Origin: a virus
Lineage: Monodnaviria > Loebvirae > Hofneiviricota > Faserviricetes > Tubulavirales > Inoviridae
DNA: 5,101 nucleotides
IMG/VR virus record: IMGVR_UViG_2698536355_000001
Strand: one strand, 5' to 3'
Shown here: positions 162 to 584 of the stretch, piece by piece
Position numbering within the stretch: position 1 is the stretch's first letter
Layout of the letters: every line of letters begins with the position of its first letter
Notes under the pieces: model-generated
What the model was told of the DNA's origin: nothing
Seen by the model: only the letters and a program-made list of their open reading frames with translations
Databases searched by the model: none
Position numbers and translations under genes: made by a program

Positions 162-584
162 TTACCAGTGATATGAATTTCTTCTGTGCCACCAATAAAG
201 CAGCCCGTATCCGATGATAAGAATTCCGAAAAACATCAACGACATTCCCCAGCCAGTTCCATACCACGAAACCATATCATCGAAAACCAATCCACCCGTT
301 TCACGTACTCCGGCAGCTTCCTTAAGGATTGGTTTGAATACCGGAATCAGAAGGGCAATCGCCAGTGGAGCACCCCAGCGAACAAGACCTGTTTCCATTT
401 TGATCCCGAAAAAGATCCCCGCCCCAACAACAAGCAGCCAGACTATCAGGCTAGGCGCAGTTTCCAGAGCTGTTTGCCATTCAACATCGAAAGTTTTCAT
501 TAGCCAGGCAACAACTGCCAGACAGAAAGCAAATATGCCCACGACAACCAGTTCAACGCCGCTTGTTTCGTTATTTCTACTCAT
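162..584 (-). CDS. Small hypothetical inner-membrane protein, 140 aa, about four predicted transmembrane helices; function unknown
   Basis: ORF of 140 aa with four long hydrophobic stretches (about aa 10-28, 43-61, 70-83, 110-130). AAGGA Shine-Dalgarno about 9 nt upstream of the ATG at 584. The plus-strand ORFs over the same DNA are Pro/Ser/Thr/Arg-rich, as expected for antisense of a hydrophobic gene. No recognisable family from memory. Confidence 0.6.
   Translation of the reverse strand: MSRNNETSGVELVVVGIFAFCLAVVAWLMKTFDVEWQTALETAPSLIVWLLVVGAGIFFGIKMETGLVRWGAPLAIALLIPVFKPILKEAAGVRETGGLVFDDMVSWYGTGWGMSLMFFGILIIGYGLLYWWHRRNSYHW

What the first reader, a model, noticed from the sequence alone, without database searches (positions are those of the whole stretch)
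162..584. Orphan 4-helix membrane protein directly downstream of the repressor-like gene: candidate superinfection-exclusion or immunity function
A 140-aa protein with four predicted membrane helices is encoded co-directionally 98 bp downstream of the repressor-like gene, separated from it by a perfect 10-bp stem-loop. Small multi-pass membrane proteins next to prophage repressors often act in exclusion or abortive infection; lambda cI-rexA-rexB is the classic analogy, though I see no sequence similarity to RexB. The region also looks somewhat more GC-rich than the AT-rich structural genes (by eye, not computed), so it may be host-derived or a separate cargo gene instead.
Basis: inference. Interest (0 to 1): 0.55.

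Follow-up and report, generated by a model that had tools for sequence, protein, structure and literature searches.

The report
Conserved filamentous-phage membrane protein, function unknown
This is a real, strongly conserved four-helix inner-membrane protein carried beside the repressor in a family of filamentous prophages (and on some plasmids); nobody has assigned it a function, and blocking entry of further phage DNA is the best untested guess.

Summary
ORF 162-584 (-) encodes a 140-aa protein with four helices, 98 bp downstream of an HTH regulator, behind a perfect 10-bp stem-loop, and richer in GC than the structural genes. The window is an IS1-flanked, defective fragment of a CUS-1/Ypf-type prophage that integrates at dif. 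The protein is not an orphan. It matches phrog_4174 (unknown function) over its full length, has about 50 close relatives in Enterobacterales and about 25 distant ones, and evolves under strong purifying selection (dN/dS 0.05-0.16). It is phage-borne, not chromosomal: 142 of 5,426 complete E. coli genomes carry it. It keeps the same slot through swaps of regulator, replication module, structural module and cargo. Relatives also sit on conjugative or mobilisable plasmids and a P1-like element. Pfam, NCBIfam, PADLOC, fold searches and profile comparisons with RexB, SieA and SieB gave nothing. No polar residue is conserved, so an enzyme or ion-coordinating site is unlikely. Best guess (about 0.35): a lysogeny-expressed inner-membrane protein that acts on a host envelope component to exclude incoming phage or mobile-element DNA. 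The host-derived reading is rejected. Function needs experiment.

The parts
162..584 (-). Gene for the 140-aa four-helix inner-membrane protein (phrog_4174 family); ATG at 584-582, TAA stop at 164-162
   Evidence: ORF list; phrog_4174 E 1.1e-84 over 1-140 of 140; dN/dS 0.05-0.16; AF2 four helices, pLDDT 85.6; loop charges fit N-in/C-in
593..597 (-). Shine-Dalgarno-like AAGGA, 8 nt upstream of the ATG
   Evidence: Read from the sequence; conserved in close orthologs
627..655 (-).
   Evidence: I3; RNA fold -13.5 kcal/mol, z -3.8; conserved with the membrane-protein gene behind three different regulator types. The terminator scan missed it, probably because its loop limit is 8 nt (my reading's stated criteria)
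656..673 (-). Hairpin A: 7-bp stem with GGAA loop, just downstream of the regulator's stop codon
   Evidence: Fold of the 98-nt spacer, z -3.1, 0 of 200 shuffles as stable; each regulator type ends in its own short hairpin
136..157 (-). Hairpin 5 nt after the stop codon (perfect 9-bp stem, GAAA loop)
   Evidence: I6; -14.5 kcal/mol, z -4.0; the same hairpin sequence recurs after the regulator stop in locus L012
683..1129 (-). Upstream co-directional HTH (XRE/CI-type) regulator, 148 aa, RstR-like position
   Evidence: HTH_3 E 1.4e-9, Phage_CI_repr 22.1 bits, phrog_3557 E 7e-74
1130..1300 (.). Divergent control region between the regulator and gene II: imperfect 27-nt palindrome 1175-1231 overlapping a sigma-70-like site at 1211-1239 that faces gene II
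   Evidence: I1. The operator role is inferred

Best explanation
The gene encodes a small inner-membrane protein: four helices, N- and C-termini in the cytoplasm, and two acidic periplasmic loops, the second carrying the conserved WYGxxW motif. It is a long-standing accessory gene of CUS-1/Ypf-type inoviruses that integrate at dif. It sits first after the repressor-like regulator in the leftward operon. It is probably transcribed with the regulator, through two hairpins that would attenuate read-through, so it would be made in the prophage state when the virion genes are repressed. It survives replacement of every other phage module and also occurs on plasmids and a P1-like element. From that I infer that it acts on a conserved host envelope component rather than on a phage-specific partner. 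Most likely it blocks entry of incoming filamentous-phage (or other mobile-element) DNA at the inner membrane, that is, superinfection or entry exclusion. In a repressed lysogen this would replace the exclusion that g3p provides in productively infected cells. Shown: the gene is real, conserved and selected; its architecture and likely topology; its fixed slot; its carriage by mobile elements; the absence of any known family or fold match. Inferred: co-transcription, expression in lysogeny, a host target, and exclusion as the phenotype.
For: Real and selected: dN/dS 0.05-0.16. Family: full-length match to phrog_4174, 49 close homologs, 41 profile hits including about 25 full-length distant ones that also score as phrog_4174. 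Architecture: KD profile; AF2 pLDDT 85.6. Topology: loop 1 has +0.9/-1.6 and loop 3 +1.5/-3.3 mean charges, the C-tail +1.7/-0.5. Fixed slot after a regulator and divergent from gene II in E. coli, Klebsiella, Yersinia and Aeromonas inoviruses, down to 26-38% identity. Retained through module swaps: L024 and L016 keep gII at 95-96% and this protein at 95-96% but have an unrelated structural module; L007 and L017 keep the structural module but have unrelated gII, gV and regulator, with this protein at 72-87%; L003 has a different regulator with this protein at 96%; the downstream cargo differs in every lineage. Phage-linked distribution: 142 genomes against 160 for gII among 5,426. No sigma-70-like site was found on the minus strand between the two genes. 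Also on an IncHI2 plasmid next to CBASS, in a pVKH10 block with ssb and ardR, beside relaxase/ArdC/T4CP, and in a P1-like element. In Mixta a solitary intact copy lies 380 bp from a perfect dif with no other phage gene. In the wide alignment only P85 is invariant and P73, Y108 and G125 nearly so, with no conserved charged or catalytic residue; this fits a binding or packing role. Literature: resident Ypf gives partial protection against superinfection by the same phage (PMC4266046); small inner-membrane proteins are proven exclusion factors in P22 (SieA, PMC10883804) and Pf4 (PfsE, PMC8764522); 2 of 10 inovirus hypothetical proteins tested gave exclusion (PMC6813254).
Confidence: 0.35

Rival explanations
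1. It is a lysogenic-conversion or host-fitness factor. The membrane protein changes a host envelope property (stress tolerance, permeability, in-host fitness) that benefits the carrier cell and is not directed at other phages.
For: Lysogeny-side position. Ypf and CUS-1 are reported to give moderate in-vivo fitness advantages, with the terminal ORFs of unknown function (PMC4266046). An intact solitary copy is retained next to dif in Mixta. Spread across several kinds of mobile element as cargo.
Against: The gene is retained far more uniformly than true cargo: the genes just downstream change in every lineage while this one stays. No link to any known transporter, enzyme or stress family. No conserved polar residues.
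Confidence: 0.18
2. It serves the element's own life cycle, for example by tempering membrane damage from secretin/Zot assembly, or by tuning virion production or stable carriage. It is not a defence function.
For: Near-universal retention in this inovirus group and a distribution close to that of gII (142 against 160 genomes). Every carrier inovirus read here encodes Zot, and all but the Vibrio one a secretin.
Against: It is retained when the whole structural and secretion module is exchanged for an unrelated one (L024, L016). It is present on plasmids and a P1-like element that have no inovirus assembly machinery. It is encoded on the repressor side, opposite to the virion genes. Vibrio inoviruses with a homologous regulator lack it. 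Ff-type phages need no such gene (established knowledge).
Confidence: 0.15
3. It is an anti-defence or establishment factor: a membrane protein that neutralises a host membrane-associated defence or sensor when the element enters a new cell.
For: Non-inovirus relatives lie beside anti-restriction or establishment genes: ssb and ArdR on pVKH10, ArdC/primase/relaxase, and the lydB-darA-ddrB block of a P1-like element. On an IncHI2 plasmid it is next to CBASS.
Against: The neighbourhoods are few and heterogeneous. There is no similarity to known anti-defence proteins. In inoviruses the gene is placed for continued expression with the repressor, not only at entry.
Confidence: 0.12
4. It is a RexB-like abortive-infection pore: a four-helix channel that depolarises the cell when triggered by an infecting phage.
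For: Same size class and helix count as lambda RexB (144 aa, four TM; established knowledge) and the same position downstream of the repressor.
Against: No RexA-like sensor gene is conserved next to it; the neighbours are a regulator and variable cargo. hhalign against RexB gives probability 0.05%. No PADLOC hit. No conserved polar or charged residues to line a pore. Constitutive co-expression with the repressor would be risky for a lone pore.
Confidence: 0.07
5. It is a host-derived chromosomal gene or an unrelated recent cargo insertion, as the higher GC suggested to the first reader.
For: It is the most GC-rich complete gene in the window: 47.0% GC and GC3 0.454, against GC3 0.24-0.35 for the structural genes.
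Against: It is present in only 142 of 5,426 complete E. coli genomes, and lies within an inovirus in every close-relative locus read except the Mixta and Pectobacterium remnants. It holds the same slot in inoviruses at 26-39% identity. GC3 is 0.40 in L007 and 0.25 in L012, so the excess is local. Part of the contrast comes from the strong third-position T bias (0.45-0.52) of the plus-strand virion genes. By established knowledge its GC is still below the E. coli genome average of about 51%.
Confidence: 0.02

Closest known systems
phrog_4174 (PHROGs v4 family, function unknown)
   Same: Full-length HMM match, residues 1-140 to profile 1-140, E 1.1e-84. Distant relatives at 21-38% identity also fall in it.
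   Different: The family carries no annotation, so membership names the protein but says nothing about function.
P22 SieA (inner-membrane superinfection-exclusion protein, 162-164 aa, three or four TM)
   Same: A small multi-pass inner-membrane protein encoded by a prophage. It has very divergent sequence types with conserved helix architecture and needs no phage partner to act (PMC10883804).
   Different: No detectable homology (hhalign probability 0.12%). The SieA motif FxRYPxEAxxFNK is absent from the target sequence. SieA has its own promoter near the P22 immI region, not a place in a repressor operon. Its targets are tailed-phage ejection proteins.
Lambda RexB (cI-rexA-rexB)
   Same: About 140 aa, four membrane helices, downstream of the repressor and co-directional with it.
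   Different: No RexA partner, no sequence or profile similarity, and no conserved polar residues.
Pf4 PfsE (inovirus superinfection-exclusion peptide that binds PilC)
   Same: An inovirus-encoded inner-membrane protein. Its function depends on an aromatic/glycine cluster, YxWGW (PMC8764522). The target has a conserved WYGTGW at the periplasmic start of helix 4.
   Different: PfsE is 30 aa with a single helix, and Pf4 is a different phage lineage with type IV pili as receptor. The motif likeness covers five residues and is not evidence of homology.
Plasmid entry-exclusion proteins (F TraS, SXT/R391 Eex)
   Same: By established knowledge these are small hydrophobic inner-membrane proteins of elements that transfer ssDNA, and they block DNA entry into a cell that already carries the element. 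Relatives of the target occur on conjugative and mobilisable plasmids.
   Different: None of the 30 family members scanned listed a TraS or Eex family at E<=1. The plasmid copies are not in the traG-traS-traT position.
CTXphi RstR module / Ypf YPO2273 region
   Same: A regulator divergent from the replication gene, with accessory ORFs on the attL side (PMC4266046).
   Different: CTXphi is described without the attL-side accessory ORFs of Ypf (PMC4266046). In the text held here, the Ypf and CUS-1 literature does not name or discuss this ORF.

Membership tests
phrog_4174 | Significant full-length match to the family HMM | tested here: met
   E 1.1e-84, 283 bits, residues 1-140 to profile 1-140
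Lambda RexAB abortive-infection system | Sequence or profile similarity to RexB | tested here: not met
   hhalign of the 30-sequence family profile against lambda RexB: probability 0.05%. No PADLOC model hit
Lambda RexAB abortive-infection system | Adjacent RexA-like sensor gene | tested here: not met
   The neighbours are an HTH regulator and, in intact prophages, cargo that differs by lineage
Lambda RexAB abortive-infection system | Four-helix membrane protein of about 140 aa, downstream of the repressor | tested here: met
   This is architecture and position only
P22 SieA-type exclusion proteins | Sequence or profile similarity, including the FxRYPxEAxxFNK motif | tested here: not met
   hhalign probability 0.12%. 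The motif is absent from the 140-aa sequence. Only phrog_4174 hit at E<=1
P22 SieA-type exclusion proteins | Sufficient on its own to block DNA entry of related phages | not testable with these tools
   Needs expression and phage challenge
Pf4 PfsE | About 30-aa single-helix peptide with a YxWGW motif that binds PilC | tested here: not met
   The target is 140 aa with four helices. It has only a loose WYGTGW resemblance. Binding is not testable here
Conjugative entry exclusion (TraS/Eex) | Match to a TraS or Eex family model | tested here: not met
   The Pfam scan of all 30 members at E<=1 listed no such family
Holins | Match to a holin family and an adjacent endolysin | tested here: not met
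   Only 2 of 30 members touch Phage_holin_3_6, at a best E of 0.33. No lysis genes are present in these inoviruses
Prophage lysogeny-expressed accessory ('moron') genes | Transcribed in the prophage state with or beside the repressor | not testable with these tools
   The position, the co-direction and the absence of a sigma-70-like site in the spacer are consistent. No transcript data were available
Core chromosomal genes of E. coli | Present in most genomes at a fixed locus, independent of phage genes | tested here: not met
   142 of 5,426 complete genomes. It lies within an inovirus in the chromosomal loci read and once on a 9.6-kb circular episome

The most novel reading that the evidence does not exclude
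phrog_4174 is a new class of broadly shared inner-membrane entry-exclusion factor. It is carried by inoviruses, conjugative plasmids and P1-like phage-plasmids, and it blocks uptake of filamentous-phage or other incoming mobile-element DNA at a conserved host step such as TolQRA. It would account for the partial superinfection resistance of Ypf/CUS-1 lysogens, independently of the repressor.
Probability: 0.2. Interest if true: 0.7.

Novelty: new member of a known kind. Interest (0 to 1): 0.45.

Why it matters
CUS-1/Ypf-type filamentous prophages sit in extraintestinal pathogenic E. coli and, by the literature, in pandemic-lineage Yersinia pestis, and related ones are found here in Salmonella and Klebsiella. 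The function of their repressor-side ORFs is an acknowledged gap (PMC4266046). Among the non-core genes, this one stays in its slot through every module exchange seen here, so it is the obvious first candidate for whatever these phages do for, or to, the lysogen. If it is an exclusion factor, it would explain the partial superinfection resistance of lysogens. It would also define a new exclusion family shared between phages and plasmids, and point to the still unknown entry route of these phages. If it is not, the result is still useful: it removes the host-gene and RexB readings and gives a clean, testable target.

Tried and rejected
Libraries and searches that gave nothing:
- Pfam gave only a VKOR hit at E 0.13. 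NCBIfam and PADLOC gave no hit for the target or its relatives.
- Profile comparisons with lambda RexB, P22 SieA and SieB were negative.
- tblastn of the target and of P0052 against 50,697 deposited phage genomes found no match, so no deposited phage record in that collection contains the gene.
- blastn of the L009 gene against E. coli genomes found nothing.
- The original CUS-1 paper (PMC135385) is not held.
- Searches for YPO2271-2273 and for inovirus exclusion found no description of this ORF.
- Rfam found no family for the hairpins.

Ideas considered and rejected:
- The PfsE YxWGW versus WYGTGW likeness as evidence of relatedness: it is too short.
- The weak PADLOC hits of the downstream cargo (PDC-S64 zinc-ribbon region, E 4e-7) as evidence of a defence island: they are partial and domain-level only.
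- The plus-strand ORFs 186-503 and 214-624 as alternative genes: the substitution pattern fits the minus-strand frame.

Full report
WHAT THE WINDOW IS. The window is a fragment of a filamentous prophage. It encodes gene II (Phage_CRI plus G2P_X_C, E 2e-72), gene V (Putative_G5P), the major coat protein, a g3p-type attachment protein, gene VI (DUF5455) and the start of gene I (Zot) on the plus strand. An HTH regulator and the target ORF lie on the minus strand. Bases 91-5004 are 99.9% identical to a tandem CUS-1/Ypf-type prophage in E. coli SCPM-O-B-12142, which sits beside hipBA. Related prophages in APEC E19057 and UM146 occupy the same site, and a perfect dif lies at the far end of the UM146 and Yersinia prophages. 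This agrees with the published XerCD/dif integration of CUS-1 and Ypf (PMC4266046). Both window ends are IS1 (1-90 and 4998-5101). IS1 truncates gene I and replaces the cargo gene that follows the target in the intact prophage. Gene III carries a 1-bp deletion. The fragment is therefore a defective remnant in which the regulator and the target gene are still intact.

THE OBSERVATION.
- ORF 162-584 (-) is 140 aa with an ATG start and an AAGGA 8 nt upstream.
- The spacer to the regulator (683-1129, -) is 98 bp.
- The stem-loop at 627-655 has a perfect 10-bp stem. It is more stable than 199 of 200 shuffles (-13.5 kcal/mol, z -3.8).
- Hydropathy shows three strong segments and one weaker one.
- AlphaFold2 with a diverse 30-sequence alignment gives a confident four-helix bundle: pLDDT 85.6, pTM 0.72, helices 6-32, 36-63, 67-91 (kinked at two prolines) and 111-137.
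- GC is 47.0% and GC3 0.454, against 40.0% and 0.24-0.35 for the structural genes.
- The ORF is a real gene: dN/dS between orthologs is 0.05-0.16 over dS values from 0.04 to above 2.

Three corrections are needed.
- The spacer holds two strong hairpins and a weaker third, not one: a 7-bp GGAA-loop hairpin follows the regulator's stop.
- A further 9-bp hairpin follows the target's stop codon.
- The protein is not an orphan.

THE FAMILY. The protein matches phrog_4174, annotated 'unknown function', over its full length (E 1e-84). A word-indexed search of 5.8 billion proteins found 49 relatives. All that carry a name come from Enterobacterales, and nearly all full-length ones are 136-140 aa. A profile search of 1.84 billion cluster representatives found 41 hits, including about 25 full-length proteins of 110-160 aa. 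These are 19-51% identical to the target, the five scanned score as phrog_4174, and one comes from Aeromonas. The exact window protein is also encoded in UTI89. Every source names these proteins 'hypothetical protein'. Across the wide alignment only P85 is invariant, and P73, Y108 and G125 are nearly so. The recurring pattern is P-x-L-[DK]-[YH]-x-A-G, then W-Y-G-x-x-W, then G-Y-G, spanning helix 3, loop 3 and helix 4. No charged or catalytic residue is conserved. Mean loop charges across the family fit an N-in/C-in topology: loop 1 has +0.9/-1.6, loop 3 has +1.5/-3.3, and the C-tail has +1.7/-0.5. Pfam, NCBIfam and PADLOC give nothing. Fold searches return only generic helical or small-membrane-subunit matches.

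CONTEXT: THE MOST INFORMATIVE RESULT. In inoviruses the gene keeps one slot. It is the first gene after a regulator in the operon that diverges from gene II, and it lies upstream of variable cargo next to attL. This holds in:
- E. coli lineages with a 148-aa HTH, a 150-aa regulator or a 60-aa protein;
- Yersinia, with 71-aa and 85-aa proteins upstream;
- a divergent E. coli/Salmonella inovirus where the protein is only 38% identical;
- an Aeromonas inovirus at 26% identity;
- a 9.6-kb circular episome.

A module-by-module comparison shows that the gene survives every exchange.
- L024 and L016 share the replication module (gII 95-96%) and this protein (95-96%), but their structural module is unrelated.
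- L007 and L017 share the structural module (81-96%), have unrelated gII, gV and regulator, and still carry this protein at 72-87%.
- L003 differs in the regulator only (this protein 96%).
- The genes just downstream differ in nearly every lineage.

Hairpin B travels with the gene, not with the regulator. Conversely, Vibrio inoviruses with a 46%-identical regulator lack the gene. In complete E. coli genomes the gene region occurs in 142 of 5,426, gene II in 160 and this regulator in 121. The gene is therefore phage-linked and accessory to the species.

Outside inoviruses, relatives occur in five settings:
- on an IncHI2 plasmid beside a CBASS operon;
- in a plasmid block with ssb and ardR;
- beside relaxase, ArdC and a coupling protein;
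- in a P1-like element after lydB-darA-ddrB;
- beside IS1595 transposases.

In Mixta intestinalis an intact copy stands alone, 380 bp from a perfect dif, with no other phage gene detectable.

GC CONTENT. The excess is real here but it is not a family trait. GC3 is 0.40 in the Yersinia ortholog and 0.25 in the 38%-identical relative, and gene IV and a small ORF of the same phage are comparably GC-rich. Part of the contrast reflects the strong third-position T bias (0.45-0.52) of the plus-strand virion genes. Together with the distribution data, this rejects a host origin.

MECHANISM. Shown: a selected, four-helix, probably N-in/C-in inner-membrane protein with no conserved polar residues. It is carried by mobile elements and placed on the repressor side of these inoviruses. 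It is independent of any particular regulator, replication protein, g3p or cargo.

Inferred:
(i) It is co-transcribed with the regulator. No sigma-70-like site was found in the spacer, and the hairpins followed by CUUUAUUG look like attenuators. It would then be made in the prophage state.
(ii) No phage partner is conserved with it, so it most likely binds a conserved host membrane component.
(iii) The most economical phenotype is exclusion of incoming phage or mobile-element DNA at the inner membrane.

Three points from the literature make this plausible. Resident Ypf protects partly against superinfection. Inner-membrane proteins SieA and PfsE do this job in P22 and Pf4. Two of ten arbitrary inovirus hypothetical proteins gave exclusion when tested. 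By established knowledge, Ff phages exclude through g3p and TolA, and a repressed lysogen would lack that. I put this reading at about 0.35.

Evidence against it is as follows. There is no homology to any exclusion protein. Deleting a Ypf-like prophage from NC101 had no effect on four virulent podoviruses; that test did not include inoviruses, and I did not confirm that the prophage carries the gene. Several non-inovirus neighbourhoods are anti-restriction regions.

Rivals and my estimates:
- host-fitness or conversion factor, 0.18;
- a function in the element's own life cycle, 0.15, weakened by survival of the structural-module swap and by the plasmid copies;
- anti-defence or establishment factor, 0.12;
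- RexB-like pore, 0.07, with no RexA, no similarity and no polar lining;
- host-derived gene, 0.02, effectively refuted.

COMPARISON WITH THE KNOWN. The protein is a member of phrog_4174, which carries no function. By architecture and position it resembles RexB, SieA and plasmid entry-exclusion proteins, but it fails every sequence-based membership test for them. The resemblance between its WYGTGW motif and the YxWGW motif of PfsE is too short to count as evidence.

VERDICT. Its kind, a small prophage membrane protein beside the repressor, is familiar, and its function is still open. I rate it as a new member of a known kind, with interest 0.45.

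Noticed in passing
window 1-90 and 4998-5101: Both ends of the window are IS1: the end of one copy on the left and the start of another on the right, in the same orientation. The right copy cuts gene I (Zot) after about 76 codons. The left copy replaces the 369-aa cargo gene that follows the target gene in the intact prophage. The 104-nt right end is 100% identical to IS1B-annotated sequence on thousands of plasmids.
   Followed up: partly
window ~3643 (within gene III, 3185-4428): There is a 1-bp deletion relative to the intact prophage NZ_CP144928 (TCTATTCTT becomes TCTA-TCTT). 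It splits the attachment-protein gene into ORFs 3050-3763 and 3955-4428. With the loss of genes I and IV, the prophage is defective, yet the regulator and the membrane-protein gene are 100% identical at DNA level to the intact copy.
   Followed up: yes
window 1175-1231 (control region 1130-1300): An imperfect 27-nt palindrome (81% complementary, ATGCTCAGTTCTGACA...TGTCAGATCTGAGCAT) overlaps the only sigma-70-like site found, TTGACT-17-TACATT at 1211-1239, which faces gene II. It looks like the operator of the divergent HTH regulator.
   Followed up: no
window 136-157; L012 just after its HTH regulator stop: The hairpin AAACCGTGG-GAAA-CCACGGTTT that follows the target gene here recurs almost verbatim (ACCGTGG-GAAA-CCACGGT) after the regulator gene of a phage that is only 28-53% identical. 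Each regulator type also ends in its own short hairpin with a four-base loop (GTCTCA/TGAGAC or GTACCA/TGGTAC). These may be portable terminators or module-junction elements.
   Followed up: partly
L001 (NZ_CP144928) 6072-15572: The intact relative is present as a head-to-tail tandem duplication with a 9,078-bp period, as reported for Ypf and other dif-integrating phages.
   Followed up: no
L004 (Mixta intestinalis CP028271) 9595-9622 and 10001-10411: A solitary, intact 136-aa homolog (52% identical) lies 380 bp from a perfect 28-bp dif site with no other inovirus gene detectable. It is either a deletion remnant or a domesticated copy.
   Followed up: partly
L009-L011 and L025 (IncHI2A plasmid p23141-mcr) 8126-14316: The P0052 subfamily (about 35% identical) sits in a block of 108-aa, 161-aa and 138-aa genes, about 580 bp upstream of a CBASS operon (nucleotidyltransferase, ThiF/E1, JAB, SAVED). 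The same block occurs in an Enterobacter chromosome.
   Followed up: partly
L033 8962-9378: A homolog at 48% identity over 140 aa is inserted after the lydB-darA-ddrB (anti-restriction) block of a P1-like element. No deposited phage genome in the collection searched carries the gene.
   Followed up: no
L014 9813-10889: A 358-aa protein with a TolA C-terminal domain (PF06519) is encoded immediately beyond the left-arm cargo of a dif-site inovirus, where other strains have hipBA. A TolA-like decoy beside a Tol-dependent phage would be worth a look.
   Followed up: no
L003 5219-5973; L012 8397-9145; L018 downstream of the target homolog: A recurring cargo pair, a 90-aa zinc-ribbon protein (ECs_2282 family) plus a 159-aa protein with an N-terminal hydrophobic helix, follows the membrane-protein gene in phages that are otherwise only 28-53% identical (54% and 63% identity for the pair). 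The zinc-ribbon protein weakly hits the candidate defence model PDC-S64 (E 4e-7, partial).
   Followed up: partly
L024 (NZ_CP128883, 9,565-bp circular record): This is an episomal inovirus genome deposited as an 'untypable plasmid'. It has the same gII-gV-regulator-membrane-protein block joined to an unrelated structural module (DUF2523-type gene VI, 520-aa g3p). That fits the published description of UP-phi phages, which share only genes II and V with Ypf (PMC7307601).
   Followed up: partly
window 3802-3894: Glycine-rich 15- and 30-nt tandem repeats (GGDTGG-type) lie within gene III, typical of the flexible linkers of g3p attachment proteins.
   Followed up: no
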